Assembly: GCF_000172995.2 (NCBI RefSeq) | Contig: NC_014729.1 | Span: 630,001-662,000, forward strand | DNA length: 32,000 nt | Reading direction: 5' to 3' | DNA from: Halogeometricum borinquense DSM 11551 | Lineage (GTDB): Archaea; Halobacteriota; Halobacteria; Halobacteriales; Haloferacaceae | In this document: positions 10,377-23,715 of the stretch, one piece after another | Layout: each line of letters begins with the position of its first letter | How positions within the stretch are numbered: position 1 is the stretch's first letter | Program-made: the position numbers and the translations under genes | Notes under the pieces: generated by a model | Told to the model about the DNA's origin: nothing | The model's database searches: none | What the model saw: only the letters and a program-made list of their open reading frames with translations

Positions 10377-11128
10377 TATTCTACCCTCACGAGGTATGCA
10401 TTTCTGTTCTTGTGAATTTCAACAGACATTTTGTCGAATCTTGCACTTCCTTCAACTTGTGACGTAGATTTCTGGACCTTATTGATTAGCCGTGTCGATT
10501 CCTCAGTGATTGGTATGAGAATTCCTTCAGAACTGGAGTAGACCTTACAGTTCCCATGGTAGCTGATTTCGTAATTGACGGTTGCCTCCCCAGAAGGTAC
10601 CTTATGGGTGACTTCCAGTTGTTCAGTGGAGTGTGGCGTTAGTTCAACAGACCGGTTACCAATCGAGACAGTTTTCTTCCCACCACCTACAACTGAAATC
10701 GGGACTGGAGGTGACCGGCTAATTGACGCGCCGGAACCGGCCGCGCTGCCGTCAACGTACGTTCTCGATAGGCTGACCTCATCACTCTTTGTGGTCTTGA
10801 TTCCATCAGGCGTCGACACGATCGTCGATTGAGGTGAGAGATCAGCTGCCAGATTCGACTCAGTAGTGTACACATGAGCCTTATTTTTCGACTTAGGGAA
10901 TGTGATGTGATGCGAGGGCCAAGCGATACTTTGACTCACCACCTGCTCCTTCGCGGTCACACCCACACTTTCCACAGACACCTCAACGAGTGGTGCCTGA
11001 GACTTGCTAATCTTCGTCTCTGCGGCCTTCGCTTCTACGCTGCCTAGCAATCCTACCGCTGCTATACCTGAGGTGCCAGCGAGGACTTGCCTTCGGCTAA
11101 ATTTTGTCTTTCTATTTTCCATCCGCAT
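10376..11128 (-). CDS. Tat-secreted protein, hypothetical
   Basis: Twin-arginine motif FSRRQVLAGTSGIAAVGLLGSVEAKA, followed by a Ser/Thr/Val-rich beta-type sequence. The stop overlaps the start of the metalloprotease-like gene by 1 nt. Confidence 0.7.
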   Translation of the reverse strand: MRMENRKTKFSRRQVLAGTSGIAAVGLLGSVEAKAAETKISKSQAPLVEVSVESVGVTAKEQVVSQSIAWPSHHITFPKSKNKAHVYTTESNLAADLSPQSTIVSTPDGIKTTKSDEVSLSRTYVDGSAAGSGASISRSPPVPISVVGGGKKTVSIGNRSVELTPHSTEQLEVTHKVPSGEATVNYEISYHGNCKVYSSSEGILIPITEESTRLINKVQKSTSQVEGSARFDKMSVEIHKNRNAYLVRVE

Positions 11129-11147
11129 CTCAAAACATGGTGCCTGG

Positions 11148-11157
11148 TTTATATTTC
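11148..11157 (-). promoter_or_regulatory. TATA-like box (minus strand GAAATATAAA) for the 11128 operon
   Basis: TATAAA lies about 20-25 nt upstream of ATG 11128, and about 27 nt from the second in-frame ATG at 11122. This spacing fits a leaderless haloarchaeal transcript. Confidence 0.3.
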
Positions 11158-11342
11158 TTTTTGATTGTCATTATCTCGTTAGTGGCCCCGACTAGGACCC
11201 ACCATTCAACTGGTTGTCACGTTCGTTGGTCGTCATAGTATTGCGCAAATTGTATGAACTGCTCGTGGATACTCGCGTGGCTTCCTACCCATCGATCCTG
11301 GAAGTCATCAATGTCTTAATAGTTTGAAACCACATCCCGATG

Positions 11343-12143
11343 GGCACTGTCTAGTTAGTGACCTCCTCAACCGGCGTTCGTCCGTTGAGCGCTTGATGCA
11401 GTCTCTAAAAATCATAGTATTGCGCAAATTGTATGATCCACCCGTGGACGCTTCCGTGACTGCCCACCCACGAATTATGGAAGCGCTCAACTCGCATTTT
11501 AAGGATATGAAACCACTTTTCGATGAGGTTTCGCTCGACGTAGTCAAGCAGACCGCTCAATCCTAATCGAGAGAGGGCAGTCTGATGGCCGTAGCCATCA
11601 ACCAGAAACACAGTATCTGAGAGATCATGTTTCTCGGAAAGTCGATGGAGAAACGCAGCAGCTGGATCGGTACCATGTCGTCCAAACAATTCGACATCGA
11701 GAATCAGCTTCGTCTCGATGTCTATTGCAGCGTACAACCAAGACCATTCGCCATTGATTTTGACAGCGGTCTCGTCGACCGCAACCCGCTTCGGCTTCGC
11801 CTCAGGCGGGGTGTGACCGCTGTCAGCCAGTCGATGTACCCACTGCCAAAAAGCTTGATGAGAGCGTTCAACGCCGAGTATTCGAAGAATTTCTTTTGTC
11901 TCTCTAAGTGAACACCCGGTCGCGTGGAGCTGGACGGCGAACACCCTGACGGGCGTCCTCAGAACGCTTCGCGTTCTGATGGGCTGCACGAGAGCTCTGC
12001 TCTCGTGAACGTCGCCGTCCGCTCACGCTCCCAAGTTTCTTCTAAATCCGTCGCAAAGCATTCGCTGAGCAGGTCTGCGAGCATCTTCCCAAACTCACTC
12101 AACGACCTGCTCGTTCCTCAAACTGGCTTAACTAGACAGTGCC
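11343..12143 (-). mobile_element. IS6-family insertion sequence, 801 bp, with 15/16-bp terminal inverted repeats
   Basis: IRL ggcactgtctagttag (11343-11358). IRR ttaactagacagtgcc (12128-12143). Flanked by TCCCGATG (11335-11342) and TCTCGATG (12144-12151), an 8-bp target duplication with one mismatch. Encodes an IS6-type DDE transposase (DETAVKINGEWSWLYAAID). Confidence 0.85.
11351..12084 (-). pseudogene. IS6-family transposase, apparently disrupted (N-terminal frameshift + premature TAG)
   Basis: ATG 12084 opens MLADLLSECFATDLEETWERERT..., which is in a different frame from the main ORF (11405..11989, GTG start). In-frame TAG at 11405-11407 is followed by RLHQALNGRTPVEEVTN and the stop at 11351-11353 inside the IR, which is the usual IS6 C-terminus. 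Confidence 0.65.
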
Positions 12144-12650
12144 TCTCGATGAGATTTCGCTCAACGTAGTCAAGCTGATCGCTCTATTCTAATCGATAGA
12201 TATTAGTCTGGTAGTCGTAGCCATCAACAAGAAACACAGAGTCAGAGAACTCCTGTTCTTCCGAGAGTCGATGGAGAAATGCAGCAACCGAATCAGTATC
12301 ATGTCGTCCAAACAATTCGACGTCGAGAATCAGCTTTTTCAGTGTCTACTGTATTCGCTACCCAAGGCCACCCGACATGATTTTGACAGCGGTCTCGTTA
12401 GCAACAACCCGCTTTGGCTTCGCCTCAGGCAGTTGTGATCGCCGCCAGCGCCAATGTACCTAGCGCCAAACTGCCTGATGAGAGCGTTCAACTCCGAGGG
12501 GGCGGACAATTTGTATTGTTTCTCTAACTGAAATTCGGTCGCGTGAAACTGGACGGCAAACGTCCAAACGAATGTTGTTGCCCACCCCACACTCCAGATC
12601 TTCTAATAAACCCGCCGCAAAGCACTGCCTGAGAGATCTGCGAGCGCCAT
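12144..12650 (-). pseudogene. transposase remnant of the older IS6 copy
   Basis: Homologous to the inner copy, but with multiple stops and indels. The only open piece is 12339..12590, ...TFAVQFHATEF... versus VRVFAVQLHATGC. Its 3' part continues at 11199-11342 (...DRWVGSHASIHEQFIQFAQYYDDQRT). Confidence 0.65.
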
Positions 12651-12739
12651 GATCAATTTAATCAATGACCTACTCATTTCTCAAACTGGCTAACTAGACA
12701 GTGCCTGAAATTTCAAAATATTTGGGGCCTGACATCCCC

Positions 12740-13573
12740 CTATGTGGTGATCCGACAAATAATATCGCCAGAGATTGTACATTTGAGAACAAGTTCTCGT
12801 GAATAGGAACAACAGGATTCAACAATTTTTTCAGACACTTCAACTGCTTCACCAGATCTCGGGCATTGAGGAACGAATGGCCGCAGAGAGATTAGAAGCT
12901 GCCCCTTTTGGTCCTTAGGAATATCATTCCACATGGGGAGAAGCCTCTCAAGAACTGAAGCTCCAGTTAGATCTGCGAGCATCGCCGATTCAGAGATCCA
13001 GTGTGCTATGACTGTGTCTCCAGTGGTGACATACACGGTCCCCCCAGTGTTGGAAACCTGATATTCCCCTTCAACGATTGGATATAGCTTCCTTAGAAGT
13101 TCACTGGACAACTCGTTCGTATTCGAAAGGGTATCGCGCCACAATTGCTCTGCCTCCGCGGTCAAACACAGGTCAGCAGAATCACTACAAGGCTCAACGA
13201 CATCATGCTCCGTTAAAAGGTCTTCAAAACTCGCAGATGGAGAGCCCATAGTTCCACCACTTCTCGCAGTCGAGTCATCGGATACGATAGCTCCACTGTG
13301 GAAGCGCCTGAGAAATGATGTTGGGAGATATTTCTTCGTGAGTCCAGGGGTTTTGGGGACTAAATATCCTTTCTGCCAGACCCTGGCCGCACCGAGAACC
13401 GCAAACAAGATCGCAATCAACGGACCGACAAACCAAAGTACAGCCGAGATTGTGATCGTAATGGAAATATTGAGTAGAGTACAGGGAGTACAGCGGTTTT
13501 TCCCAGTATATTCGGGGTCTTTTATTGATTCGAGGTGTTCATTCAAGGTATAGAAACATATGGTAGGAAACAT
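12740..13573 (-). CDS. membrane protein, hypothetical (N-terminal CxxC + two TM helices, Cys-rich C-terminus)
   Basis: 277-aa ORF. NRCTPCTLLNISITITISAVLWFVGPLIAILFAVLGAA forms a hydrophobic hairpin. The soluble domain ends in CPRSG...CCSYS...C...C. No family recognised. Confidence 0.6.
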   Translation of the reverse strand: MFPTICFYTLNEHLESIKDPEYTGKNRCTPCTLLNISITITISAVLWFVGPLIAILFAVLGAARVWQKGYLVPKTPGLTKKYLPTSFLRRFHSGAIVSDDSTARSGGTMGSPSASFEDLLTEHDVVEPCSDSADLCLTAEAEQLWRDTLSNTNELSSELLRKLYPIVEGEYQVSNTGGTVYVTTGDTVIAHWISESAMLADLTGASVLERLLPMWNDIPKDQKGQLLISLRPFVPQCPRSGEAVEVSEKIVESCCSYSRELVLKCTISGDIICRITT

Positions 13574-13698
13574 AAAAAACTACTGTTCAAAGTGTGTTTT
13601 TCCATCCACAGTTTCACGTTTGACTTAGAATCGTGAGCAAGCCCTCAGCTACCGATGTTGACCACTAAGACAGCACGCATCCAGTAGAACAGTCGCTC

Positions 13699-13951
13699 GT
13701 GGTCGTAGAATTGGGGTAGAAATGGACCACTGTGACTCACTCCGCTCGTCACAAGCACCCACTCACCCCGTTCGCGGGAACGGCTCAGATTCGAACTTCC
13801 CTCGCTATCGCTCGGGCGTTCGAATCTTCACCGGGTGAAATCTCCACCACCTCTCGGACCACTCGCTGTCGCTCGTGGTCTGTGAGAGGTGGGGAGAATA
13901 TGGGCCGACTCAGTGTTGATATTGGGAAGAGACGCTCTTCCCACTAGTTTT
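13699..13951 (+). other. cluster of consecutive inverted repeats / stem-loops in a 610-bp gene-free stretch (possible structured RNA or protein-binding array)
   Basis: Read directly. 13699-13704/13725-13730 (6 bp). 13731-13736/13748-13753 (6 bp). cccgTTCGcggg at 13767-13778. 13787-13796/13818-13827 (perfect 10 bp, AGATTCGAAC/GTTCGAATCT). Palindrome TTCACCgGGTGAA at 13827-13839. Composite hairpin 13841-13897 with about 20 bp. GGGAAGAGacgCTCTTCCC at 13924-13942, followed by TTTT at 13948-13951. Confidence 0.5.
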
Positions 13952-13999
13952 CACGGATCCAGATGGAAACTAGCTCCTCGGCAAATCGCCAGATGGGAA

Positions 14000-14018
14000 G
14001 AGGATTTCAACAGAGCCG
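14000..14018 (+). repeat. GAGGATTTCAACAGAGCCG, copy 1 of an exact 19-bp direct repeat
   Basis: Identical to 14164..14182. Spacing is 164 bp. Confidence 0.8.
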
Positions 14019-14163
14019 AATTGGCATAAGAACTCATCCGTGGTTCCAACTGTTGAATGCCAGTTATATCTGCGGCAAAATCACTGCTGACGCCCCCATA
14101 CCGACTAACTCACAGCTGCTTAATAGGCGCTCTATATTCAGCACACAGTTTGTATCAACTACT

Positions 14164-14182
14164 GAGGATTTCAACAGAGCCG
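14164..14182 (+). repeat. GAGGATTTCAACAGAGCCG, copy 2 of an exact 19-bp direct repeat
   Basis: Identical to 14000..14018. It ends one base before the stop codon (14184-14186) of the minus-strand 79-aa ORF. Confidence 0.8.
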
Positions 14183-14183
14183 T

Positions 14184-14423
14184 TCACCACTGTTCGAACA
14201 ATTCGTCGATATCGTTCAACCGAGGACGACTCAGGATTCGTTCGTAGCCTTCGAGTGCCATTTCGTAGTGGACGTGAGGGAAGTAATCGAAGATCTCGTA
14301 CTGGGTCTTCCCGTCGTCCTGTGTGACGAATAATCGGTCTTCAGGACTAGTGTTGTTGTAGAGTGTTTCTGCCTCTATGTATGCGGCTTTGAGCTGTTGG
14401 TACTCCCTTTCGTGAATGGGCAT
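14184..14423 (-). CDS. small acidic hypothetical protein (79 aa)
   Basis: ORF with plausible acidic composition (MPIHEREYQQLKAAYIEAETLY...DELFEQW). Its first 49 nt overlap the end of the start-less ORF 14375..14785. Confidence 0.5.
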   Translation of the reverse strand: MPIHEREYQQLKAAYIEAETLYNNTSPEDRLFVTQDDGKTQYEIFDYFPHVHYEMALEGYERILSRPRLNDIDELFEQW

Positions 14424-14793
14424 ATCTGCGTCTGAAATCGGTGGTTCTCACCTCTCGTCCTCGTTTCGTCGGGTTTGTAGTTTTGACTCCTTTCAAGCTC
14501 GGGTTCGTAGAACGGGGTTAGCTCTTTGTCAAGTAGTTCTCCGCCGTCAGGATAGGGTTCATCCGTTTCAATATCGGTTCTGTACGCGATTGCCTTCTGA
14601 AGTTGTTCTTGGGAGAAGTAGCCCCATTCCCAACGGTCGTAGGTATTCGGAGATTTAACTCGGCCAAAGTACAGACCATCTTCTTTGATATCGTATGCCT
14701 CCCACCACCAATCCGGTAGTAAGAGAACTGCCCATGCCGCTAACGGCTCCTTATACTCATCTTCGTCTTCATATTCTGAAATAAATCATTCAT
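14375..14793 (-). pseudogene. 136-codon coding-like frame with no in-frame ATG/GTG/TTG; probable 5'-frameshifted gene
   Basis: The minus-strand frame is open from 14785 to TAG 14377-14375. It reads FISEYEDEDEYKEPLAAWAVLLLPDWWWEAYDIKEDGLYFGRVKSPNTYDRWEWGYFSQEQLQKAIAYRTDIETDEPYPDGGELLDKELTPFYEPELERSQNYKPDE... I checked every codon and found no canonical start. The nearest ATG (14793-14791, MNDLFQN...) is in another frame and stops after 17 codons. Confidence 0.4.
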
Positions 14794-14907
14794 ATCTTAC
14801 ATTATTCAGAAGCAGGCAATCGAGTAGTAGCAAACGAGACACCACATTTCAATTGATGTCAAACATCATATTGAAGTAGATTCGGTATTCTTATTCTTTT
14901 GGTTTGA

Positions 14908-15252
14908 ATGACTGAGGACCATCATCCCCTGAGAGGGGTAATCTTGTACTGGACCCTCGGCCAACAGCCTCAACAGAAGTTGAAGGACCGAATGTTTTCC
15001 GGCAACTACAGCCACTACTCAACTAAAGACGGTGAATTCACCGACACAAGTAGGTTGAAAACAGGAGAGTACCTGATTATCGAAATCAGCGAAGAACAGT
15101 TAGAGGCGTCCAATGAACCGGTAGAATCCGAATGCCCTGAACTCGAAACCCTCCCAGGAAGCGAGCTCGAACAGTTCTGTCTCTACCGAGAAGAAGACGG
15201 ATACTGTACAACACTCGGGGAAACCTGCGTCCTCTTAGAACCCGATGACTGA
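14908..15252 (+). CDS. hypothetical acidic protein (114 aa) with C-terminal Cys cluster
   Basis: ORF preceded by an AT-rich intergenic region. The stop overlaps the next gene by 8 nt (15245-15252), suggesting an operon. No family recognised. Confidence 0.55.
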   Translation: MTEDHHPLRGVILYWTLGQQPQQKLKDRMFSGNYSHYSTKDGEFTDTSRLKTGEYLIIEISEEQLEASNEPVESECPELETLPGSELEQFCLYREEDGYCTTLGETCVLLEPDD

Positions 15253-15658
15253 AGCACTCGAAAACCTCCGTGAGAAAGACCAGGTTGTACTCAACCAGAT
15301 AGACCAGGGTAACGACGACGTCCAGAAAATCACCGAAGCCACCACTCTAGAAAACTACCACGTCACCTACGCCTTCGAAAAACTCGAAGATCTCGGGCTT
15401 CTAAAGGTTTCAAAACCTGAAGGCACCGTCGAACGGATAATCAACGGTCAAAAACGAGTCTTCCAACATCCCAAACAAGCCGCTCTCACCGAGAAAGGAA
15501 GACAACACCTCGAACAATTAGAGACAGACGGCTTTGACGAGTATGAAAACCTAAGCCACCGAGAACTCGTGAAAAAAACCCACCAACTCGAAGCCGATAT
15601 CAGACAGCTAGAAAACTCGCTCAATACCTTCAGACAGCAAGTCGTGGAAAAACTATAG
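15245..15658 (+). CDS. winged-helix DNA-binding protein with C-terminal coiled coil
   Basis: DQVVLNQIDQGNDDVQKITEATTLENYHVTYAFEKLEDLGLLKV fits an HTH plus wing of the MarR/TrmB-like type. The C-terminus (HRELVKKTHQLEADIRQLENSLNTFRQQVVEKL) is heptad-like. Confidence 0.6.
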   Translation: MTEALENLREKDQVVLNQIDQGNDDVQKITEATTLENYHVTYAFEKLEDLGLLKVSKPEGTVERIINGQKRVFQHPKQAALTEKGRQHLEQLETDGFDEYENLSHRELVKKTHQLEADIRQLENSLNTFRQQVVEKL

Positions 15659-15661
15659 GGA

Positions 15662-16111
15662 TTAAACGTCGGTCTGGTATGGCTCCTCTTTAGCTCTCTG
15701 TACGTCCTCATCCTTCTCAATCTCGGAGCCTGTACGTCCCTTATTCCTCGACGCAACGTTTCTCATCGCATTTTGTTTCTCGTCGAACCCGTCCTTGAGT
15801 TTTGAGAGTCCTTTTGACAACCCCTGAACAAACCTCTCTCCCTTCCCGGTAATCCGGAAACGATGGGGCTCCCTGTCCTCGTCAACATCAGCCATCTCCA
15901 AGTCCTCATACGACTGCATCCTACTCGAAAAACCGGGGTCGAGTGGACCGTGCTCTTCCCTTCTGAACGACCAATCATCAGAGTCAGATTTCGAGTTTCG
16001 GTACTGGTATAGCGACTTGTGAAACTTCAACCGTCCTTCAATCTCGCCGTCGAACTCGGATAGCATCATCAACCGTGTATGTAACTCTTCGTCTCCAATT
16101 TCTTCCTTCAT
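15662..16111 (-). CDS. small acidic protein, winged-helix-like (pattern reminiscent of DUF4065/Panacea-SocA); fourth gene of the candidate defence operon
   Basis: 149 aa. GRLKFHKSLYQY...WSFRREEHGPLDPGFSSRMQSYEDLEMADV...HRFRITGKGERFV. The start ATG overlaps the stop of the upstream ATPase gene (ATGA at 16108-16111). Confidence 0.6.
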   Translation of the reverse strand: MKEEIGDEELHTRLMMLSEFDGEIEGRLKFHKSLYQYRNSKSDSDDWSFRREEHGPLDPGFSSRMQSYEDLEMADVDEDREPHRFRITGKGERFVQGLSKGLSKLKDGFDEKQNAMRNVASRNKGRTGSEIEKDEDVQRAKEEPYQTDV

Positions 16112-17817
16112 AGGAAGTCACCTAATTTGGTTTGAAGCGGTTCCCGTTCCAAGATCTCCACTTGATCAAACCGGGAGTCAATCGAGGTATTAGAGGTGGT
16201 TACAATCATCTGCTTGTCCAAAGATAGAATATACTCTAGGGCTGCATCTCTGTTCTCTTCCTCCTGAAGGTTCGAAAACGGCTCATCTAAAACAATAGTA
16301 TCCCACTCGATAACACCGTTTTCAGTTGCAAAACGACTCAGGGTACAAGCAAAGGATATATTCAGTAGGTGAAATTCCGAGCCACTCAGATTACCTCCTC
16401 TATCATACTCGCGCAGGTTGTTCCTACCAGGGAATTGAATTCGACCCTCCTCGGAAATACTGATTCCAAGCTGCAGGTTTGAATTCATCTGGTTGTACGC
16501 TTCTTCCCAAGCCTCACTGAACTCCTGAATACCAGCCTCAAAGCTTTGTTCAGTCAGTTCTTCGACCATCTCAGAGGCATGGTTATGTGCTTCAGAATAT
16601 GCCTTAGACTTCCGGTTGATCTCCTCAACCTTCTCCTCTAGACTTTGTCGGTCAGATTTGAGTTCGTCCAAACTGCTAGAAATAGATTCTAACTCTTCTT
16701 GGACGTGGTCCTGAATCTGCTGGATATTGTGGTCATAGTTGTCCAGCCTTCGTTTGGTGAATCCGTCTAACTCTTCGAGCTCGGGTTTTTCCTCTTTTAG
16801 TTCGCCAATCTGGTTAGAGACTTCGTCCCGCTGGTCTTGCAGTTCTTCAATCTCTTCTTTCAGCTCATCAAGCAGATCATCGGACTCCTCGATTTTCTGG
16901 CTAAGACGCTGCTTCAATCCTTCCAGAGAGTGGTTCCGACCACAGTAAGGACAGTAACCGCGTTGAATCCTGTTCTTTGCTTTCTCAGTTGTAATCCTGC
17001 GGTCACAGGTCGGACAGACAAAATCATTGACAGCCTCAGCAATAATATCGTTAACCTCGGACTCGTAGTTCTCCTGTTTCCTCTTCTTCCGATGCAGTTT
17101 TCGAAGACGCTTACGCAAACCCTCCTTTTCCTTGAATAACTCATCAAGCCTGTTCTCCAGTTCTTCATCTCTCCTCAACTGTTGGCTGAGCTTAGCCAGT
17201 TCACCTGATTCAATCTGTGACTCAAGTCGGTCGTACTTCTCTTTCTGTGACTCTAAATCACTGACCTGTCGGTCAAGATCGGACTTCTCCTCAGAGAGCC
17301 GTCTTTTCGTATCCTTCGTCTCTACAACGAGTTCGCTTAGTTGTTCCTCGGCATCTTCCAGCCGGGAAATCCTCTGCTCCAGCTCTCGGTTGGTAACGCT
17401 CCGAATCAGTTTGGTTCTTTGACCTCGACTCAACTCGTCCAAAGGCATCTTACCAATATGAGAGTGGACAAAAAGAGATTTCAGCAGAGTAGTATCCCCG
17501 AGGTCCTCGGAGAAGGCTTCAGAAGCATTCGAGCCATCCAGTGTTTCATCTTCTCGTTCGTACTCTGATTCTGGGTTGCCTCGGAAGAATCGGCTGTCGT
17601 TCGTGAATTCGAGTTCAACCTCGTTTTGTCGACCGGTCGCTAAATCGATAGTGTGCTTTGCTCCAAGAAGATTGTAGAGAATAGCGTTGAAAGTCAGTGT
17701 TTTCCCGGTTCGGCTTCCTCCCCTGAGCAGATGAGAATCACTGCTTACTGATTCGATTTCCATGCCTCGGTGCTCGCCGCTAGCGAACTCTTCGATGTTC
17801 AGGGAGTCAATCTTCAT
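16108..17817 (-). CDS. SMC/Rad50-like ABC ATPase with a mid-coiled-coil 4-Cys zinc hook
   Basis: Walker A RGGSRTGKT (aa 32-40, nt 17698-17721). About 230 aa of heptad-rich, charged sequence lie on each side of CPTC-x17-CPYC (aa 268-292, nt 16942-17016). ABC signature LSGSE (aa 477-481). Walker B/D-loop TIVLDEPFSNL (aa 507-517). Confidence 0.8.
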   Translation of the reverse strand: MKIDSLNIEEFASGEHRGMEIESVSSDSHLLRGGSRTGKTLTFNAILYNLLGAKHTIDLATGRQNEVELEFTNDSRFFRGNPESEYEREDETLDGSNASEAFSEDLGDTTLLKSLFVHSHIGKMPLDELSRGQRTKLIRSVTNRELEQRISRLEDAEEQLSELVVETKDTKRRLSEEKSDLDRQVSDLESQKEKYDRLESQIESGELAKLSQQLRRDEELENRLDELFKEKEGLRKRLRKLHRKKRKQENYESEVNDIIAEAVNDFVCPTCDRRITTEKAKNRIQRGYCPYCGRNHSLEGLKQRLSQKIEESDDLLDELKEEIEELQDQRDEVSNQIGELKEEKPELEELDGFTKRRLDNYDHNIQQIQDHVQEELESISSSLDELKSDRQSLEEKVEEINRKSKAYSEAHNHASEMVEELTEQSFEAGIQEFSEAWEEAYNQMNSNLQLGISISEEGRIQFPGRNNLREYDRGGNLSGSEFHLLNISFACTLSRFATENGVIEWDTIVLDEPFSNLQEEENRDAALEYILSLDKQMIVTTSNTSIDSRFDQVEILEREPLQTKLGDFL

Positions 17818-18322
17818 CGGTTATGTCGTACAATTTTACTGAGCTTTTAACTACCTGTCGGAGATTCCGATATTCCCGATAACTGAATAAGTAAATCACG
17901 ACCAGCGATCCAATCAACGAAAAAACGGCATACGTCAAGCCATACAAATCATTCACGGCAAATGGCAGAGAAACCCCGATCAACAGACCAGAAAGAACCG
18001 TTACCAAGTGGCGGTGTGCTTTGCCATCCATTCGATCTATACGGTCCTGAGTATCCTGATCAGCATCCCAGTAGAACTCATCATCTCCCGTTCGTCCATC
18101 GATGCGGTTGAAACTCTCCTCAATAACATCACCCGCGAAAAACTCCATCAAACCATCATTGAAAACCACGCTAAGGAAAACCAGGAAAACAGAAGGAACA
18201 CCAGCAGCAAAAAGGTGAACAGGCTTGCTCAATTCGAAAGACGACAAGTAGAGAAAACCAGCGGCATATATGAATAGAAACAGAGCACCCCAACTCTGCT
18301 GAATCTGCTTACCAAGCTGCAT
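17807..18322 (-). CDS. four-TM membrane protein with acidic central loop
   Basis: 171 aa. Hydrophobic helices WGALFLFIYAAGFLYLSSF, LFAAGVPSVFLVFLSVVF, LVTVLSGLLIGVSLPFAV and TYAVFSLIGSLVVIYLFSY. Loop: DGRTGDDEFYWDADQDTQDRIDRMDG. The stop overlaps the ATPase start by 11 nt. Confidence 0.7.
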   Translation of the reverse strand: MQLGKQIQQSWGALFLFIYAAGFLYLSSFELSKPVHLFAAGVPSVFLVFLSVVFNDGLMEFFAGDVIEESFNRIDGRTGDDEFYWDADQDTQDRIDRMDGKAHRHLVTVLSGLLIGVSLPFAVNDLYGLTYAVFSLIGSLVVIYLFSYREYRNLRQVVKSSVKLYDITDED

Positions 18323-18401
18323 AAAACAACTATCAACATCAAAGAGTTAGATAACTTTCCCTCCACCGGAGTGAATCTGACACTTCGACAGTTAGTATAA
18401 T

Positions 18402-21400
18402 TCAGTCCCAAGCGTGGAAGTCGCTTTCAATCTCCCCAGTGAATTCTCCATCTTCATTAAGTGAATAGACACCTCTGATCTGGCTCTTACCGAACTCATT
18501 GCCGCTAATAGTTCCTGTAGATATTCTTTTCTCGCCTTGCACAAGCCATACTATGGACAAACCTGTTTGAGTTAGTTCCTGTAGGAGGTTGCTATCTCCT
18601 CCGATCATTGTCAATGAATTCACCCTGTCGAGCAGTCCATCTGACTCAGAAACGTCGGCAATCCGAACTGGGTTTGTTGACTGGTTCATGAACATCTTTT
18701 CACCAACAACCCATTCCATTTCAAGTAGTTCCGAGAGATATGGTGATGGCACGAACATTCCATACGATTCGTCTATCGAGCAGTCATACTCGGCTTCCCA
18801 ATGGAGGTCGATTATTGTTTTTTCGGTGTCAACAGGAGATCCTCTGATAGCTTGACCGGCGTCCTCTAACCAATCATCAACAACTGGGTGCCATGGGTAC
18901 TCCCCTCTGAAGACCTGAGTCAGAGTGGCTAACCGAACTAACCCACTTTGAATACTATCGCTCGAAACCCAGTTCTGTCTAACCCATGCCAGCAATTCTG
19001 ATTTGTCTTCTGCATCTACGATAACGGAATCTATCCAGAAGACAATCTTCCGCTCGGCATCAGACTCCTGACTCTCTTTTTCTCCCCAATTGTATGTTCC
19101 ATGCAGCGGTAACCATGATTCCTCATCGATAGATATTTCCAACAAATTGGGTATCTCAGGAAACTCTTGGTCATCTGAGACCCACCCTTCAGTTCCTACA
19201 TCACCAATACGAAGACTGTAATTCGGGACTTGATCAATAGACAGATCAGATTCTGGTTCAGGATTTAGTACAGAGGGGTCTATGTTTCTATCCCAGTTTG
19301 TCCAGGGACCACTATAGGGGGTATCCGTTATTGAGTCGGTGAACTCGCAATCATCCGTTATCCAAGCGACGAACTCGTAGTAAGCAATCCACTGGTACTT
19401 TTTACTGAATTTCTCGGGTTTCCGAGTCCCCCTTCCTGCTCGCAACCTCCAGTTCACGCACTGGTCGAATTCACCAAACGAATCTGGATGCCAACCAAGG
19501 TCAAACACTCTTTTCGTAATCCATCTAAGAGCCTCGTCACCAGAGATGTCATAACCGTGTACATGAGTGCTGTCACTATTCGTTCCAACAACGTACCGAG
19601 CAAAATCACTGAAACCGCCTCCCTCAAAGTCAGATCCCACTAAACCAATCCAAAACTTGGATTCAAGATCTGTATCTGCATCTTCCAACCGTTCTGTTAC
19701 CTGATCTCGTAACTCATCCGGACTTGGAATACCGATACTGAACGAGCTGTCATACGGCGGTCTAATCTTATCAAGGTCTACACTGTAGGTATCAGACTTG
19801 TCGTTTGCCAGTTCAATGATTCCCCTAGCATAGTCTCTTGTCAGGATATGTGGCGTTGGATCACCATCCTCAAACTCCAGTTCAAATACAGTGTCAGCAA
19901 TGTCTGTTACCGAGTTCTCCGTTCTGTTTCGGAGAACCCCACCGTAGGCTGCTGCATAAACTCTCTCCAAAATGTATGGATCGTTCACACCTCGGAAGCG
20001 TTCAATCAAGTCAATATAGATCTCAAGGTCGGAACCTACGACATTGACTATCGCCTTGGTAGATCTATCCCGTAGAAATCTGTTGGGGCAGCAAAGGAAC
20101 CAAGATAAGGTAACCGAGATCAACCGCTTCAATTCGATTGACTCAATTGGATTGTTCTCCAGAGAGAAACCCCAGTTAACCAATCGAAATACCTCGGAAG
20201 TATCTTCACCGAATTCTTCGTGCAGGAACCTAGACCAATCGTGGTCTCTTCCACGAACACCATATTCCATCAGGATGCCGTGGAGATATTCTGTGTTTAA
20301 TGGATGCTCTGAACTCGTTGCTAACGTAAGGAGAACCCGCCAGAGTTCATATAGTTCATCTAATTCCCCGATTTCGCTCCAAAGATAATCCGTGACTTCT
20401 TGACTAATATCGCCATTCGAATCGATCAGTGTTTGGGGATCTCTCCAACCCAGACTCTTAATGAACGGAATCAAAATCGCCTCTGAATCAATGAAATCGA
20501 ATATTTCGACGTTATGTTGCTCAGGAAGATGGATCGATAGCGCTTGAATCAGTCCAGAATACCGGAATGGGTCGTCAAATACCTCCTGCAACTCATCACT
20601 ATCGGATAGAGCATCCCTGAAATCACCGTCCACGTAGAGGTCGAGATACTGCTGTGCCAACATATGGTCTGCAAACTTATCATACGAGAATCTAACCGCT
20701 TCTCCTGCATCCTCATCAAACTGGACAACCTCTGAAATCACACCCTCACTCAAGATATGCCTGTATAGACTCTCTGGGTAGCGTCTTCCTGGTAGAAAGT
20801 CATTGACGATCTGCTTTGCTTTATCCTTGGGCAAGCGTTTGGTGCCGCCTCCCTCTTCAGCCATTTCACGAGCCAGCGCTTCAACAGCAGTTCTTACCTT
20901 GTTATCGCTCGGATCGTACTGTAGCTCCCGCCAGAGCCGTTCGTGGACACCATCAATATATCCTTCAAATATCTGGCTAATGCCTTCAGGACCGTGAGAA
21001 ACCCGGCTCTTTCCCTGTCTCTCCAAGTTCTCACAGAACAGCTTCAAAAACAACGGGACCTGAAACTCTTGTTTCAGAACCGGGATCGAGGAATGGTCTA
21101 TCCCGTGTGCGTCGAAGAACTTTCGAACAGCTTCGTACTCAACTTCTCTGAAGCCATAGTGTCTGGTTTCGATGAGGTCGTCCTCAGTACTTTCGAATAC
21201 TCGGTTTTCATAGCCGGTGCGGCAACTAACACAGATCCCGATATGTGGGTAGTTCTCTAACTTCCGTAGCACTCCTGGAAGCTGTCTCGACCACATCCGT
21301 GGATCAGAACTCTCATTCAAAGCGTCGATCATGATGAGAGATCGAACACCACGTGATTCTCCGAGAGAATCTAGGGCACCTAAGAACTCTTCAGTACCAC

Positions 21401-22601
21401 AAGTCAATCCAAACCGTTCGATAATCTGCGTCCAAATATTCCTGTTATAGAAGTTCTCGCCGAGCAACAATACAGTCGGGTAACCTTCCTCAATTCGGTC
21501 TTTAGCGACATTGCATAACAGGTGTGTTTTCCCCATCCCTGCTTCCCCAAGCAACTTCAAAGCAGGGTCCTGAGCTACCTGCAAATCCTTCGATTGAACA
21601 TATCTTTGAAAGCTGTATACTTCACTCTGGACTTGACGGAAACGATTCAGGGTATGTTTTTCTGTTGTACCTACTGAATCCTGTTCTTCCTCTGCCTGTT
21701 CTTTGAGAGTTCGAAGCTCCGGTTCCAGTGAACTGATCGCTTGCTCTGCCTGTTCAAGAGTATCAACTAACTCTTGAATAGGGATGTCTGTATCCACCTG
21801 TTCAATATCTTGGAGAAGGACTGGTATCTGTTCTATTGCATCGTGTAACTCATGAAAAGATTCCTCATCAGCCTGCTTCAACACCTCAATACTTCTCTGG
21901 GTGAACAAGCTACTTGCTTCCTCACTGAGAGCATCTAAACGATCTTTAACGTCCCCAACGAAAGCTGGGGTTCTCCCTAATGGCTCAAAAATATCCGATG
22001 CTTTGATATCAACGTGAAGCTCTGGTGTGTACCGCTCACTAGCATTAGAAATCGTTTCTTCTAGCTCTGACCGTAATTTGGATCCAGTTAGTTGGTTTGT
22101 GTTGAACCAGAAGTAGAGCCGACCTTTGTGCTTCTCCTTACTTAGGAGTTCTAATAGTCGGGATTGACCCCAGAAAACGAACTCCACATCCATGTCACGT
22201 TCATCCGCCCACCTTTCCCATTTCTCCTTCCGGTCATTGTACTTCTCAAGTGCGGTCTTAACCCCTTTACGCGGGCTGTGAGGTCGGTCGCATGGGACAC
22301 ATACAAAATACTTGGTTAGTCCTGGATAGGTGTCTAGTGCTTTTTTAACAGATCTGTCGACTTGTGATAGGCTGCTATTATCGATTCTATCTACGTATTT
22401 TGCTTGCCAACCCCATACATCTCCTTCCGGGGACTCCCATTTGCATTCGATTCCTGCGTCTGGGTCGCCAATACGGGTATATTTCCATGAACCAGATATG
22501 TCTTCAAATTGGTGTGCAATCTGGCTACAGAGTTCCTCGAAGCCCTTCCTGCGGGAAGTTTCAACCGGTCTAATATTGTTAAAGTTGATAGAAATGCTCA
22601 T
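18402..22601 (-). CDS. 1399-aa Mrr-like PD-(D/E)xK nuclease + NACHT/STAND-like P-loop NTPase + large C-terminal region
   Basis: N-terminus: GFEELCSQIA...IGDPDAGIECKW...WGWQAKY (helix Glu, Asp, Q-x-K). Walker A LLGEAGMGKTHLL (aa 350-362, nt 21525-21548). Walker B SLIMIDALNES (aa 421-431, nt 21312-21338), of the hhhhD[GA]LxE NACHT type. Alpha-helical repeats follow, then a Trp-rich C-terminal domain of about 450 aa (KYQWIAYYEF). Confidence 0.85.
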   Translation of the reverse strand: MSISINFNNIRPVETSRRKGFEELCSQIAHQFEDISGSWKYTRIGDPDAGIECKWESPEGDVWGWQAKYVDRIDNSSLSQVDRSVKKALDTYPGLTKYFVCVPCDRPHSPRKGVKTALEKYNDRKEKWERWADERDMDVEFVFWGQSRLLELLSKEKHKGRLYFWFNTNQLTGSKLRSELEETISNASERYTPELHVDIKASDIFEPLGRTPAFVGDVKDRLDALSEEASSLFTQRSIEVLKQADEESFHELHDAIEQIPVLLQDIEQVDTDIPIQELVDTLEQAEQAISSLEPELRTLKEQAEEEQDSVGTTEKHTLNRFRQVQSEVYSFQRYVQSKDLQVAQDPALKLLGEAGMGKTHLLCNVAKDRIEEGYPTVLLLGENFYNRNIWTQIIERFGLTCGTEEFLGALDSLGESRGVRSLIMIDALNESSDPRMWSRQLPGVLRKLENYPHIGICVSCRTGYENRVFESTEDDLIETRHYGFREVEYEAVRKFFDAHGIDHSSIPVLKQEFQVPLFLKLFCENLERQGKSRVSHGPEGISQIFEGYIDGVHERLWRELQYDPSDNKVRTAVEALAREMAEEGGGTKRLPKDKAKQIVNDFLPGRRYPESLYRHILSEGVISEVVQFDEDAGEAVRFSYDKFADHMLAQQYLDLYVDGDFRDALSDSDELQEVFDDPFRYSGLIQALSIHLPEQHNVEIFDFIDSEAILIPFIKSLGWRDPQTLIDSNGDISQEVTDYLWSEIGELDELYELWRVLLTLATSSEHPLNTEYLHGILMEYGVRGRDHDWSRFLHEEFGEDTSEVFRLVNWGFSLENNPIESIELKRLISVTLSWFLCCPNRFLRDRSTKAIVNVVGSDLEIYIDLIERFRGVNDPYILERVYAAAYGGVLRNRTENSVTDIADTVFELEFEDGDPTPHILTRDYARGIIELANDKSDTYSVDLDKIRPPYDSSFSIGIPSPDELRDQVTERLEDADTDLESKFWIGLVGSDFEGGGFSDFARYVVGTNSDSTHVHGYDISGDEALRWITKRVFDLGWHPDSFGEFDQCVNWRLRAGRGTRKPEKFSKKYQWIAYYEFVAWITDDCEFTDSITDTPYSGPWTNWDRNIDPSVLNPEPESDLSIDQVPNYSLRIGDVGTEGWVSDDQEFPEIPNLLEISIDEESWLPLHGTYNWGEKESQESDAERKIVFWIDSVIVDAEDKSELLAWVRQNWVSSDSIQSGLVRLATLTQVFRGEYPWHPVVDDWLEDAGQAIRGSPVDTEKTIIDLHWEAEYDCSIDESYGMFVPSPYLSELLEMEWVVGEKMFMNQSTNPVRIADVSESDGLLDRVNSLTMIGGDSNLLQELTQTGLSIVWLVQGEKRISTGTISGNEFGKSQIRGVYSLNEDGEFTGEIESDFHAWD

Positions 22602-22660
22602 GGACGTAATCCAACTCGTGCTTGTGTTTCAAGTAAGTGTCTGGTTCTGAGACAGGTTTG

Positions 22661-22670
22661 AGTATAATAG
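22661..22670 (-). promoter_or_regulatory. TATA-like element (minus strand CTATTATACT) upstream of the 1399-aa gene
   Basis: The only AT-rich box in the 181-bp gap between the integrase stop and ATG 22601. It lies 60-69 nt upstream of the ATG. Confidence 0.25.
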
Positions 22671-22782
22671 TTTGGTCGACTGAAGGCTTGGAATCAGGGT
22701 AGAATAATTTGAACCGGTCTGACTCGCAGGTTTGAGCCAGGTTCGAAACAGGGGTGCGACTAAGTGGTGTATTCCGGTTCTT

Positions 22783-23715
22783 TTAGAGGTGAAGTGGTTT
22801 GATGGCTTGTAGGTATTCTTGTTGTGCTTGGTTACGGTCGATGCGTGTGTAGATGTCTATGGTTTCTGACTCGGAGTCGCCTCGGATGTATTGGAGGATG
22901 TGGTCGGGCATTCCTTGGTTTCTCATGAGGGTGGTGAAGACGGTTCGGAAGGTGTGTGGTGTGAATTTTTTGTGGAACCGTGTTTCGCCTTCTTCCATGA
23001 CCCCGGTTTTAACGGCTGCCTCCCTGACTTTCCGCCGGATTCTTTCCCGTGTTAGCTGGTTTCCGGTTCGACTGGAGGCAAACAGGTATTCCGAGGTGTT
23101 CTGGTCGATGAACTGGAGGCGTTGAATCATTCTCACTGTTTCATCGTCAACGGGTATGACGGTGGTTTTGCCTCCTTTCCGGTTGGTAAGCCGAATAAAA
23201 CCGTCTTCGAGCAGTAGGTCTTCGCGTGTGATGGTGAGTGCTTCTGTGACTCGGCACCCGGTTTTAGCGAGTACTACTGCCACGGTCTTGTCCCGCGGAT
23301 CATCGATAGCGTGAACAATCTTCTCAGCGTTTTCCCATGTGGCGCAGTCAGGTCGGTCGTGGATCTGCTTAGGAACTTCTTCGAGTACGACCGCGGCAGG
23401 GTTCCCGGTGATGTCTTCGTATCGGGGTCGTTTCATTGCCCAAGCGTAGAAGCTGCTGAGTGATTCGAGGTAGCGGCGTTTGGTGTTTTGTGCCAAGTCT
23501 CGTTCTACGAGTATTCTCAGGTACTGTTCAACGTGGTGTACTTCGACGTCTTCCGGGTCAAGTTCGGGGAAGTGTTCGTGGAAGAACCGTTGAAGTGTCC
23601 GGCTGTACTCATTGATTGTCCGATGGCTTCTACCGGTCGTGGTCTTGCTTGTAAGGAACTCGTTGATCGAGTCGTGCTTGTTCTCGAACCGGGTTTTGTA
23701 CCAGTCATCACCCAT
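22783..23715 (-). CDS. tyrosine recombinase / phage-type integrase (XerC/D-like)
   Basis: 310 aa. N-terminal SAM-like core-binding part (INEYSRTLQRFF...). Catalytic region with ...GCRVTEAL..., HKKFTPHTFRTVFTTLM (HxxR) and IDIYTR (nucleophile Tyr). Confidence 0.9.
   Translation of the reverse strand: MGDDWYKTRFENKHDSINEFLTSKTTTGRSHRTINEYSRTLQRFFHEHFPELDPEDVEVHHVEQYLRILVERDLAQNTKRRYLESLSSFYAWAMKRPRYEDITGNPAAVVLEEVPKQIHDRPDCATWENAEKIVHAIDDPRDKTVAVVLAKTGCRVTEALTITREDLLLEDGFIRLTNRKGGKTTVIPVDDETVRMIQRLQFIDQNTSEYLFASSRTGNQLTRERIRRKVREAAVKTGVMEEGETRFHKKFTPHTFRTVFTTLMRNQGMPDHILQYIRGDSESETIDIYTRIDRNQAQQEYLQAIKPLHL

What the first reader, a model, noticed from the sequence alone, without database searches (positions are those of the whole stretch)
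16108..17817. Compact SMC/Rad50-like ATPase whose coiled coil is interrupted at its midpoint by a complete 4-Cys zinc ribbon
Walker A (aa 32-40) and signature/Walker B (LSGSE aa 477-481, IVLDEP aa 508-513) lie at opposite ends of the 569-aa protein. Two charged, heptad-rich arms of about 200 aa lie between them. CPTCDRRITTEKAKNRIQRGYCPYCGR (aa 268-292, nt 16942-17016) sits at the expected apex. Rad50 contributes only one CxxC per chain and builds its zinc hook by dimerisation. Here a single chain carries both CxxC pairs. This suggests either an intramolecular zinc knuckle capping the hairpin or a different dimerisation or DNA-contact mode. The arms are also much shorter than in Rad50 or SMC.
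Basis: partly seen in the sequence, partly recalled or inferred. Interest (0 to 1): 0.7.

Follow-up and report, generated by a model that had tools for sequence, protein, structure and literature searches.

The report
Short Rad50-like ATPase with double-CxxC tip
This gene encodes a short Rad50/Lamassu-type DNA-sensing ATPase with a conserved four-cysteine zinc site at the tip of its coiled coil, and it always sits between a small four-helix membrane protein and a small soluble protein in archaeal mobile islands, so it looks like an undescribed Lamassu-like immune module with a membrane partner.

Summary
ORF 16108-17817 (-) encodes 569 aa with Walker A (33-40), LSGSE (477-481) and IVLDEP (508-513). 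Two heptad-periodic helical arms cover aa 144-264 and 299-444. The apex carries CPTC-x17-CPYC (C268/271/289/292). All 92 full-length relatives, down to about 30% identity, keep both CPxC motifs, and 82 keep the 17-residue spacer.

The arms are 121 and 146 aa, not about 200. The "zinc ribbon" fold is unproven: the AF2 apex has pLDDT 59-69 and a helix in the linker.

The apex is not new as a class. Haudiquet et al. 2025 (PNAS) report short LmuB proteins with zero, one or two CxxC copies. The best HMM match here is LmuB (PADLOC, 1.5e-24). Rad50, ASRP and SMC models fall far below their cutoffs.

The operon does appear new. A translationally coupled cassette recurs in all 19 genome loci fetched, on a Haloarcula plasmid, and in non-halophilic relatives, one in a Methanosarcinales-like gene context. 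It consists of a 4-TM protein (171 aa), the ATPase, and a 149-aa protein. Neither partner matches LmuA, LmuC or ABC-3C models. Neighbours include Avs2, an integrase and other defence-type genes.

Best reading: a Lamassu-like surveillance module with a membrane partner. Function is inferred, not shown.

The parts
16108..17817 (-). 569-aa short Rad50/LmuB-like coiled-coil ABC ATPase (the finding)
   Evidence: ORF. PADLOC LmuB PDLC03859 E=1.5e-24. PDB Rad50 profile hit 1.3e-8. AF2 mean pLDDT 86. Foldseek matches to SMC, Rad50 and LmuB at E 1e-11 to 1e-7.
17698..17721 (-). Walker A GGSRTGKT (aa 33-40)
   Evidence: G33, G38 and K39 are invariant. This is the most conserved 30-aa window of the protein.
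17026..17388 (-). Ascending coiled-coil arm, aa 144-264, with a near-invariant G205 kink
   Evidence: AF2 helices 144-204, 206-249 and 251-264. Heptad periodicity z=5.8.
16924..17025 (-). Apex module, aa 265-298: CPTC (268-271), a conserved linker TEKAKNRIQR predicted helical (277-286), and CPYCGR (289-294)
   Evidence: Apex conservation (mean top-residue frequency 0.64) equals that of the signature/Walker B region.
16486..16923 (-). Descending coiled-coil arm, aa 299-444
   Evidence: AF2 helices 299-343, 352-360 and 365-444. Heptad periodicity z=9.8.
16726..16788 (-). Conserved break in the descending arm (aa 344-364, motif PELxxLDGF, P345 invariant); possible elbow or folding point
   Evidence: The analogy to the LmuB folding points described is an inference.
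16279..16389 (-). Signature LSGSE (aa 477-481) through Walker B IVLDEP (aa 508-513)
   Evidence: S478, E481, D511 and E512 are invariant.
17807..18322 (-). Upstream partner: a 171-aa protein with four hydrophobic TM-length segments and a conserved acidic loop of about 49 aa between TM2 and TM3. It overlaps the ATPase start by 11 nt.
   Evidence: A homologous or equivalent 4-TM ORF lies directly upstream of the ATPase in all loci examined.
15662..16111 (-). Downstream partner: a 149-aa acidic soluble protein, possibly winged-helix. Its ATG overlaps the ATPase stop codon (ATGA).
   Evidence: It is conserved next to the ATPase in all loci, including convergent arrangements in L022, L024 and L029. 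No family hit was found. The AF2 model is unusable (pLDDT 46).
18402..22601 (-). Neighbouring Avs2 (AVAST type 2) gene. It is context, not part of the cassette.
   Evidence: PADLOC Avs2 E=0, and NCBIfam Avs2 933.9 bits against a cutoff of 1000. It is adjacent to the cassette in only 2 of the 19 genome loci (L001, L005), besides this window.
22783..23715 (-). Tyrosine integrase at the edge of the low-GC island
   Evidence: Pfam Phage_integrase 1.2e-24. GC is 46-50% across about 8000-23000, against 57-63% in the flanks.

Best explanation
The ORF encodes the ATPase subunit of a conserved archaeal three-gene cassette: a 4-TM membrane protein, a short Rad50/LmuB-type coiled-coil ABC ATPase, and a soluble protein of about 150 aa.

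Shown:
- The ATPase has an intact Walker A, signature motif and Walker B (D-E).
- It has two arms of about 18 nm with a conserved mid-arm break.
- It has an invariant apex of two CPxC motifs separated by a conserved 17-residue linker.
- The three genes are translationally coupled, diverge in parallel, and travel together in variable or mobile regions rich in defence-type genes.

Inferred: the cassette works like a Lamassu/ABC-3C system.
- An ATPase dimer surveys DNA with its heads, for example DNA ends or abnormal structures.
- The four cysteines most likely bind one Zn within each chain. This would give a rigid cap at the tip of the hairpin.
- The conserved surface of that cap, together with the 149-aa protein, would dock the cytoplasmic loop or tail of the membrane protein.
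- DNA- and ATP-driven rearrangement of the arms would then release or activate the membrane protein, which would compromise the membrane as in abortive infection.

The apex would therefore serve as a partner-docking and structural module rather than as a Rad50-type inter-chain hook.
For: Superfamily and architecture.

Closest HMMs are LmuB. PADLOC LmuB gives 1.5e-24 for the window protein and 1e-16 to 1e-33 for its relatives. Rad50, ASRP and SMC NCBIfam models score 18-54 bits against cutoffs of 300-1087.

Apex conservation.

Cassette conservation:
- 19 of 19 genome loci.
- A Haloarcula marina plasmid.
- Non-halophilic tier-2 relatives (D+E about 0.17), one in a Methanosarcinales-like gene context.
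- The small gene stays adjacent even where it is inverted.
- The three proteins diverge in parallel: 89/90/88% identity in the closest locus down to about 30/30/31% in the most distant.
- Gene overlaps of 11 nt and 4 nt.

Island context:
- Low GC, an integrase and an IS fragment.
- Avs2 next door in this window, L001 and L005.
- Neighbours elsewhere hit HamB-like and DpdJ-like helicases, type I REase, TmtA, IetA, PD-Lambda-4, mad2/3/8, and SLFN, NYN and HsdR domains.

Lamassu precedent:
- In solved Lamassu complexes LmuA and LmuC sit at the LmuB hook or apex.
- Short LmuB proteins with two CxxC copies exist.

The TM protein's long loop carries conserved motifs (TG..FY, ID.fDeK) and, by the positive-inside rule, faces the cytoplasm (the topology is an inference).
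Against: - There is no functional data.
- Neither partner matches any LmuA, LmuC, ABC-3C CTD or ABC-3C MC model in PADLOC or Pfam.
- The gene order differs from lmuA-lmuC-lmuB.
- The LmuB match is modest and partial (85 bits, aa 285-547).
- The structure search does not separate LmuB from Rad50 or SMC.
- The defence-neighbourhood census is qualitative. It has no background control, and PADLOC single-HMM hits are over-inclusive.
- The plasmid copy lies next to an orc1/cdc6 gene, which would also fit a replicon-maintenance role.
- Intramolecular Zn binding is not demonstrated: the apex pLDDT is 59-69 and no coordinates were available.
- The switch (H-loop) His of Rad50 aligns with a conserved Ser (S542), so ATP turnover may be atypical.
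Confidence: 0.5

Rival explanations
1. It is simply a bona fide short Lamassu system. The ATPase is an LmuB of the already noted two-CxxC type. The 171-aa and 149-aa proteins are highly divergent LmuA (CTD-only or replaced effector) and LmuC that current HMMs miss.
For: - LmuB is the best PADLOC hit.
- Length (569 aa), Walker B hhhhDE and two CxxC copies all fall within the published range for short LmuB.
- The same paper describes a short-Lamassu clade whose LmuA lacks the effector domain, and it notes that LmuC is too diverse for sequence methods.
Against: - There are no LmuA, LmuC, CTD or MC hits, even at permissive thresholds.
- The upstream protein has four TM-length hydrophobic segments in an otherwise very acidic proteome. 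The short LmuA CTD is described as a bundle of 5-6 helices with no membrane segments mentioned.
- The gene order differs.
- The accessible Lamassu papers list no membrane effector.
Confidence: 0.2
2. It is not immunity. It is a membrane-anchored DNA-handling module of mobile elements or chromosomes, for example replicon tethering, segregation or DNA transfer. The TM protein anchors the SMC-like ATPase, and the small winged-helix-like protein binds DNA or closes the ring like a kleisin.
For: - Other archaeal SMC-related proteins (ClsN, Sph) organise chromosomes or affect cell shape.
- The cassette occurs on a plasmid next to orc1/cdc6 and in integrase-bearing islands.
- The small protein gives weak winged-helix-type hits: AF_1382 at E=0.12, and DUF4364 and HVO_A0261_N at about 0.006.
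- No recognisable toxic enzymatic effector is present.
Against: - Distribution is patchy: only 19 loci among the 185,579 species genomes of the collection scanned by pattern.
- Defence-type neighbours recur.
- The closest HMM family is a defence ATPase.
- The ASRP model is not met: 54 bits against a cutoff of 300, over the coiled coil only.
Confidence: 0.2
3. Apex alternative: the two CPxC motifs do not form one intramolecular site. Instead they build a domain-swapped double zinc hook, with two Zn per dimer and each Zn bound by motif 1 of one chain and motif 2 of the other. This would give an unusually rigid Rad50-like tip-to-tip dimer.
For: - The second motif, CP[FY]CG[RQ], followed directly by the descending helix, resembles what I recall of the Rad50 hook consensus (own knowledge). 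The LmuB hook is described as CPxCG or similar.
- Hook-mediated dimerisation is the norm in the superfamily, and the LmuB zinc hook is required for defence.
- AF2 confidence at the apex is low, as would be expected if the site forms only in the dimer.
Against: - A CxxC-x17-CxxC pattern in one chain is a typical single-site C4 spacing. The weak hits in this region are to C4 ribbon or knuckle families (ribosomal L33, eL42 and eL37, LIM, PRK14890).
- Intramolecular chelation is entropically favoured (inference).
Confidence: 0.3
4. It is a Rad50 paralogue working in double-strand-break repair.
For: The ABC head matches archaeal Rad50 structures (E=1.3e-8), and there are Foldseek hits to Rad50.
Against: - There is no Mre11 or SbcD neighbour.
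- Rad50 NCBIfam equivalogs score 27-42 bits against cutoffs of 700-1087.
- The arms are less than half the Rad50 length.
- It has two CxxC motifs rather than one.
- It sits in a patchily distributed island.
Confidence: 0.03

Closest known systems
Short-type LmuB of Lamassu / ABC-3C defence systems (e.g. V. cholerae DdmC, Salmonella enterica LmuB, PDB 9hqu/9hqx/9nyg/9uxh)
   Same: - It is a coiled-coil ABC ATPase of about 570-650 aa with arms of about 20 nm.
- LmuB is its best HMM family (PADLOC).
- CxxC motifs sit at the apex, and two-copy variants are reported.
- It is part of a three-gene operon in defence islands.
- In solved complexes the partners dock at the apex, and the arms have folding points.
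   Different: - The partners are a 171-aa 4-TM protein and an unrelated 149-aa protein, with no LmuA, LmuC, CTD or MC signature.
- The gene order is TM-ATPase-small rather than A-C-B.
- The host range seen is haloarchaea plus non-halophilic relatives, one in a Methanosarcinales-like context.
- Walker B keeps the catalytic Glu.
- No enzymatic effector is present.
Rad50 / SbcC
   Same: It has the same ABC head fold and motif order. The second apex motif, CPYCGR, resembles what I recall of the Rad50 hook (own knowledge).
   Different: - It has two CPxC motifs per chain instead of one.
- Its arms are 121 and 146 aa, against roughly 250-300 aa per arm (own knowledge).
- It has no Mre11 or SbcD partner.
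- It scores far below the Rad50 equivalog cutoffs.
- The H-loop His is replaced by Ser.
Archaea-specific SMC-related proteins (ASRP: ClsN, Sph1/2)
   Same: They are archaeal, SMC-related, of similar size, and carry a zinc hook at the apex.
   Different: - The NCBIfam ASRP model scores 54 bits against a cutoff of 300, and the match covers only the coiled coil.
- The ASRP paper describes a zinc hook motif and does not mention a doubled one.
- The accessible text on ASRPs mentions no TM or small-protein partners.
RexAB-type and other abortive-infection systems with small multi-TM effectors (named from my own knowledge)
   Same: The proposed logic is the same: a cytoplasmic nucleic-acid sensor controls a small 4-TM membrane protein.
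   Different: No sequence relationship was found in PADLOC. The analogy is functional only and was not tested here.

Membership tests
Lamassu (LmuB) / ABC-3C | SMC/Rad50-like ABC ATPase with N-terminal Walker A, C-terminal signature and Walker B, and an intervening antiparallel coiled coil | tested here: met
Lamassu (LmuB) / ABC-3C | Sequence membership in LmuB HMMs | tested here: inconclusive
   PADLOC LmuB PDLC03859 gives E=1.5e-24 at 85 bits, but only over aa 285-547 in three stretches. Other LmuB models give 1e-8 to 1e-15. PADLOC has no curated cutoff. No LmuB chain appeared among the 60 PDB sequence hits listed, of 137 with E<=1.
Lamassu (LmuB) / ABC-3C | Short-type features: about 600 aa, Walker B hhhhD[Q/S/T/E], and 0-2 CxxC motifs at the apex | tested here: met
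   569 aa, IVLDE and two CPxC motifs, against the definition given.
Lamassu (LmuB) / ABC-3C | LmuA partner: an N-terminal effector domain plus a conserved C-terminal domain (ABC-3C CTD) | tested here: not met
   The upstream 171-aa protein has no PADLOC LmuA hit and no Pfam CTD hit. It has four TM-length hydrophobic segments.
Lamassu (LmuB) / ABC-3C | LmuC / middle-component partner | tested here: not met
   The 149-aa protein and 21 relatives have no PADLOC LmuC hit and no Pfam MC hit at E<=10. The fold test was not possible because the AF2 model has pLDDT 46. LmuC is known to be hard to detect by sequence.
Lamassu (LmuB) / ABC-3C | Operon order lmuA-(lmuC)-lmuB | tested here: not met
   The order is TM-ATPase-small in all halophile loci and in L020 and L031. 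The small gene is inverted in L022, L024 and L029.
Lamassu (LmuB) / ABC-3C | Anti-phage or anti-plasmid activity that depends on the ATPase and the effector | not testable with these tools
   This requires experiments.
Rad50 / SbcC | Equivalog-level sequence match | tested here: not met
   NCBIfam Rad50 models score 27-42 bits against cutoffs of 700-1087, and SbcC scores 36 against 920.
Rad50 / SbcC | A single CxxC hook per chain, long arms, and an adjacent Mre11/SbcD nuclease | tested here: not met
   It has two CPxC motifs, arms of 121 and 146 aa, and neighbours without a phosphoesterase.
ASRP (ClsN/Sph) | NCBIfam NF045487 at or above its cutoff | tested here: not met
   54 bits against 300, and the match covers only aa 145-423.
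Canonical SMC | Hinge dimerisation domain at the apex | tested here: not met
   The apex is a 34-residue Cys4 segment. TIGR02168/02169 score 18-22 bits against cutoffs of 567-729.
C4 zinc ribbon | Two CxxC knuckles 10-25 residues apart in one chain | tested here: met
   CPTC-x17-CPYC, invariant across the family.
C4 zinc ribbon | Beta-hairpin ribbon fold with all four Cys around one Zn | tested here: inconclusive
   AF2 shows a beta-bridge around the first knuckle but a helix (277-286) in the linker. pLDDT is 59-69 and no coordinates were available. Only weak hits to Zn-ribbon families were found.

The most novel reading that the evidence does not exclude
The cassette is a distinct archaeal immune system in which a Rad50-like DNA sensor directly controls a small 4-TM membrane protein instead of an enzyme. 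The coiled-coil tip of the sensor is capped by an intramolecular Cys4-Zn module. That cap has replaced the inter-chain zinc hook and serves as the docking site for the membrane effector and a new adaptor protein. If so, it would link SMC-type DNA-end or DNA-structure sensing to membrane disruption, and it would show a second, non-dimerising use of the hook position.
Probability: 0.3. Interest if true: 0.7.

Novelty: new variant of a known kind. Interest (0 to 1): 0.5.

Why it matters
Lamassu is one of the commonest SMC-based immune systems. Published structures cover LmuB proteins with no hook or a single hook, paired with nuclease effectors.

This family offers two things:
- A natural, strictly conserved two-CxxC apex. 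With it one can test whether the hook position can act as an intramolecular Zn cap or a docking platform rather than as a dimeriser. The Lamassu literature raises this question explicitly and leaves it open.
- A compact archaeal three-gene cassette whose only candidate output is a membrane protein. If it is defensive, the effector repertoire of SMC-like sensors would extend to membrane proteins. It would also add an unannotated system to the haloarchaeal (and probably methanogen) immune inventories; it is currently labelled 'hypothetical' or 'SbcC/MukB-like'.

Tried and rejected
- Pfam, NCBIfam and PADLOC scans of the two partner proteins, and of their relatives from distant loci, gave nothing above noise.
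- The weak SocA_Panacea hits (2 of 22 members, best E=0.037) and winged-helix hits are leads only.
- The AF2 model of the 149-aa protein failed (pLDDT 46), so I did not attempt a fold search on it.
- A PDB sequence search with the small-protein profile found no LmuC or kleisin.
- hhalign of the small-protein family against the upstream proteins of a sister double-CxxC clade (L026, L025) put the motifs in register but was not significant (probability 0.4%, E about 0.15).
- A PDB search with the apex peptide gave only generic Cys4 proteins at E>0.3.
- No phage record carries a relative. Only one plasmid does.
- The Krishnan et al. 2020 ABC-3C paper could not be read. I therefore cannot exclude that this exact clade, or a TM effector, is mentioned there.
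- The supplementary tables of Haudiquet et al. are not held. I could not check which clades carry two CxxC copies or which archaeal genomes were listed.
- Foldseek could not discriminate LmuB from Rad50 or SMC.
- I considered Avs2 as a functional partner and rejected it. It is adjacent in only two of the 19 genome loci besides this window, and on either side of the cassette.
- I rejected ASRP, canonical SMC and Rad50 membership on curated cutoffs.
Full report
**1. Observation**

ORF 16108-17817 on the minus strand encodes 569 aa.
- Walker A GGSRTGKT, aa 33-40.
- Signature LSGSE, aa 477-481.
- Walker B IVLDEP, aa 508-513.
- Cysteines at 268, 271, 289 and 292, plus a fifth at 491.

The coordinates given for aa 268-292 are right. 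The peptide as quoted runs two residues further, to R294.

Random placement of five Cys in 569 residues gives two CxxC motifs within 30 residues in 1.5e-5 of trials.

The protein is 100% identical to Halogeometricum borinquense GL213_03495. It is very acidic (22% D+E), as expected for a haloarchaeon.

**2. Conservation**

The word-indexed homologue search found 62 proteins. All of those that carry a source name are haloarchaeal, and nearly all are about 570 aa. In a 32-sequence alignment reaching 30-32% identity, C268, P269, C271, R283, C289, P290 and C292 are invariant.

An exhaustive HMM search of 1.84 billion representatives found three things:
- A tight family at E<1e-93.
- A second tier at E 1e-70 to 1e-29, of 593-628 aa and with non-halophilic composition.
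- More distant LmuB-like, Rad50-like and SbcC-like proteins.

All 92 full-length members of the first two tiers carry C[PR]xC-x16-22-CPxC, and 82 have exactly 17 residues between the motifs. Apex conservation equals that of the signature/Walker B region, and the arms are the least conserved part. Several more distant clades also carry two CxxC motifs. These include proteins of about 680 aa with Walker B hhhDS, and a CEFC-x15-CPLC group. Most Rad50/SbcC-sized hits have one motif.

**3. Architecture**

AF2 on the family alignment gave mean pLDDT 86 and pTM 0.65:
- An ABC head formed from aa 1-143 and 445-569.
- An ascending helix at 144-264, with kinks at G205 and 250.
- An apex at 265-298, with pLDDT 59-69.
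- A descending helix at 299-444, with a conserved break at 344-364 (invariant P345, motif PELxxLDGF).

The arms show strong 3.5-residue hydrophobic periodicity, with z=5.8 and z=9.8. The heads show none.

In the apex, the first CPTC sits in a small beta-bridge. Residues 277-286 (TEKAKNRIQR, conserved) are predicted helical. The second motif, CPYCGR, leads straight into the descending helix. It resembles what I recall of the Rad50 hook consensus, and the LmuB hook is described as CPxCG or similar. A 'zinc ribbon' fold is plausible but unproven.

The Rad50 switch (H-loop) His aligns with a conserved Ser, S542.

**4. Family assignment**

- No Pfam family reaches its gathering score.
- NCBIfam Rad50, SbcC, SMC and ASRP models score 18-54 bits against cutoffs of 300-1087.
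- The best match in any library is PADLOC LmuB PDLC03859, at 1.5e-24 and 85 bits over aa 285-547. The same model is the top PADLOC hit for nine of ten relatives tested, at 1e-16 to 1e-33; for the tenth (P0166) other LmuB models rank first.
- By sequence, the nearest solved structures are archaeal Rad50 heads at 1.3e-8.
- By fold, the SMC head, Rad50 and five Lamassu LmuB entries (9hqu, 9hqx, 9uxh, 9ux7, 9nyg) all match at E 1e-11 to 1e-7 with TM-scores of 0.3-0.4. The fold therefore confirms the superfamily but not the family.

**5. What the literature already says**

Haudiquet et al. 2025 (PMC12663957) split LmuB into a long type (about 800 aa, one CxxC) and a short type (about 600 aa, Walker B hhhhD[Q/S/T/E]). 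They state that short LmuB proteins encode zero, one or two CxxC copies. They conclude that short LmuB may use divergent dimerisation strategies. They found Lamassu in only seven archaeal genomes.

Both structural studies place LmuA and LmuC at the LmuB hook or apex, and both describe kinked or folded arms. In the Salmonella system the hook is required for defence.

It has not been resolved structurally. The structures described in these two studies cover a hook-less LmuB and a LmuB with a zinc hook, neither described as doubled.

**6. The operon**

The ATPase start overlaps the stop of a 171-aa ORF (17807-18322) by 11 nt. Its stop overlaps the ATG of a 149-aa ORF (15662-16111) in an ATGA.

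The 171-aa protein has four TM-length hydrophobic segments arranged 2+2. Between them lies an acidic loop of about 49 aa carrying conserved motifs. By the positive-inside rule, the loop and the basic C-tail should face the cytoplasm. That topology is an inference.

The same three genes, in the same order and abutting or overlapping, occur widely:
- In all 19 genome loci found in the GTDB species set, all Halobacteria or Halobacteriales by record title.
- On a 187-kb Haloarcula marina plasmid, where RefSeq calls them 'hypothetical', 'SbcC/MukB-like Walker B domain-containing' and 'hypothetical'.
- In second-tier loci from non-halophilic contigs. One of these has a gene context that looks Methanosarcinales-like to me. 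In three of these loci the small gene is inverted but still adjacent.

Identities of the three proteins fall in parallel across loci, from 89/90/88% to about 30/30/31%. They are therefore inherited as a unit.

Neither partner hits any PADLOC, Pfam or NCBIfam family. This includes LmuA, LmuC and the ABC-3C CTD and MC families. The small protein gives only weak winged-helix or Panacea-type hints, and its AF2 model is unusable.

**7. Context**

The cassette lies in a low-GC island at about 8000-23000, with 46-50% GC against 57-63% in the flanks. The island holds a tyrosine integrase and an IS240 transposase fragment. A full Avs2 gene sits immediately upstream.

Avs2 is adjacent in only two other loci, and on either side of the cassette. 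It is a neighbour, not a partner.

Across 22 loci, the neighbouring ORFs of 180 aa or more include the following:
- HamB-like and DpdJ-like helicases.
- Type I restriction subunits.
- TmtA, IetA, PD-Lambda-4_A and PDC-S27.
- mad2, mad3 and mad8.
- SLFN/AlbA, NYN and HsdR.

This points to defence or mobile islands. It is a qualitative census without a background control.

**8. Mechanism**

Most likely, at a confidence of about 0.5, this is a Lamassu-like three-component surveillance module. The ATPase would be the DNA sensor. The Cys4 apex would be an intrachain Zn cap and docking surface. The 149-aa protein would be an adaptor, and the 4-TM protein would be the output.

Shown here: the motifs, the architecture, the conservation, the operon linkage and the island context.

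Inferred: DNA sensing, apex docking (by analogy with LmuACB structures), Zn stoichiometry, membrane action, and defence itself.

Rivals:
- An ordinary but divergent short Lamassu system (0.2).
- A non-immune, membrane-anchored DNA-handling module of mobile elements (0.2).
- An inter-chain double zinc hook instead of an intrachain site (0.3, for the apex question only).
- A repair Rad50 paralogue (0.03).

**9. Verdict**

The apex feature is known as a class but is mechanistically open. The cassette with a membrane partner is unannotated and, in the literature I could access, undescribed. The Krishnan et al. 2020 paper was not readable, so this point has a gap.

I rate it a new variant of a known kind, with interest 0.5.

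Noticed in passing
window 18402-22601 (-): A full-length Avs2 (AVAST type 2) gene of 1399 aa lies 79 nt upstream of the cassette. PADLOC gives E=0. NCBIfam Avs2 scores 933.9 bits, just under its cutoff of 1000, and covers aa 184-1011.
   Followed up: partly
window ~8000-23715: A low-GC island (46-50% against 57-63% in the flanks) is bounded by a tyrosine integrase (22783-23715) and contains an IS240-family DDE transposase fragment (11405-11989). ARAGORN found no tRNA gene in the window.
   Followed up: partly
window 14908-15252 (+) and 15245-15658 (+); L001 9176-15680, L003 9159-15644: The 114-aa ORF matches only the C-terminal ~85 residues of a 646-aa mad8/HerA-like ATPase. In L001 and L003 that ATPase is intact and heads a four-gene cluster (about 646, 325, 738 and 320 aa; two of them hit mad8) next to the cassette. 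The 137-aa winged-helix-like ORF is also conserved there. The window seems to keep only a truncated remnant of that neighbouring system.
   Followed up: partly
window 16192-16209 (aa 537-542 of the ATPase): The Rad50 switch/H-loop His (ITHH in PDB 3aux) aligns with TTS in this protein. S542 is at least 90% conserved in the family, so ATP hydrolysis may be slow or regulated differently.
   Followed up: no
L022 2996-3475, L024 2615-3112, L029 9853-10323: In three non-halophilic relatives the small-protein gene lies directly downstream of the ATPase but on the opposite strand, convergent. In L029 it overlaps the ATPase 3' end. The linkage has survived an inversion.
   Followed up: partly
L019 5277-8593; L006 6693-9196: These look like decayed copies. 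In L019 (Salinibaculum litoreum) the TM gene and an N-terminal ATPase fragment are separated from the rest of the ATPase by about 1 kb. In L006 (Haloferax larsenii) the TM ORF is truncated and the small gene is split in two.
   Followed up: no
L026 1-4465; L025 1-2794: A sister clade of ~685-aa ATPases (CPxC-x17-CPLC, Walker B hhhDS, acidic composition) has a different upstream set: a multi-TM protein with a C-terminal coiled coil, a 187-aa protein and a 313-aa protein. The 313-aa protein shows the same K..lY / F...GP motif order as the 149-aa protein, but hhalign was not significant (E about 0.15).
   Followed up: partly
window 16933-17166 (aa 218-295 of the ATPase): The PADLOC candidate family PDC-M14A, a 152-position model, aligns at E=3.8e-6 to the upper ascending arm plus the double-CPxC apex. 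A stand-alone coiled-coil-plus-Cys4 protein may therefore exist in candidate defence systems.
   Followed up: no
P0060: One database protein of 663 aa joins about 37% of this ATPase to RNA polymerase beta-prime domains on a 2.2-kb metagenomic contig. It is probably an assembly or gene-calling chimera.
   Followed up: no
window 4186-5025 (-): A 279-aa voltage-gated-type ion channel (Ion_trans and Ion_trans_2) has a C-terminal zinc-ribbon hit below the Pfam cutoff (Zn_ribbon_3, 22.2 bits against 27). It lies outside the island and is unrelated to the finding.
   Followed up: no
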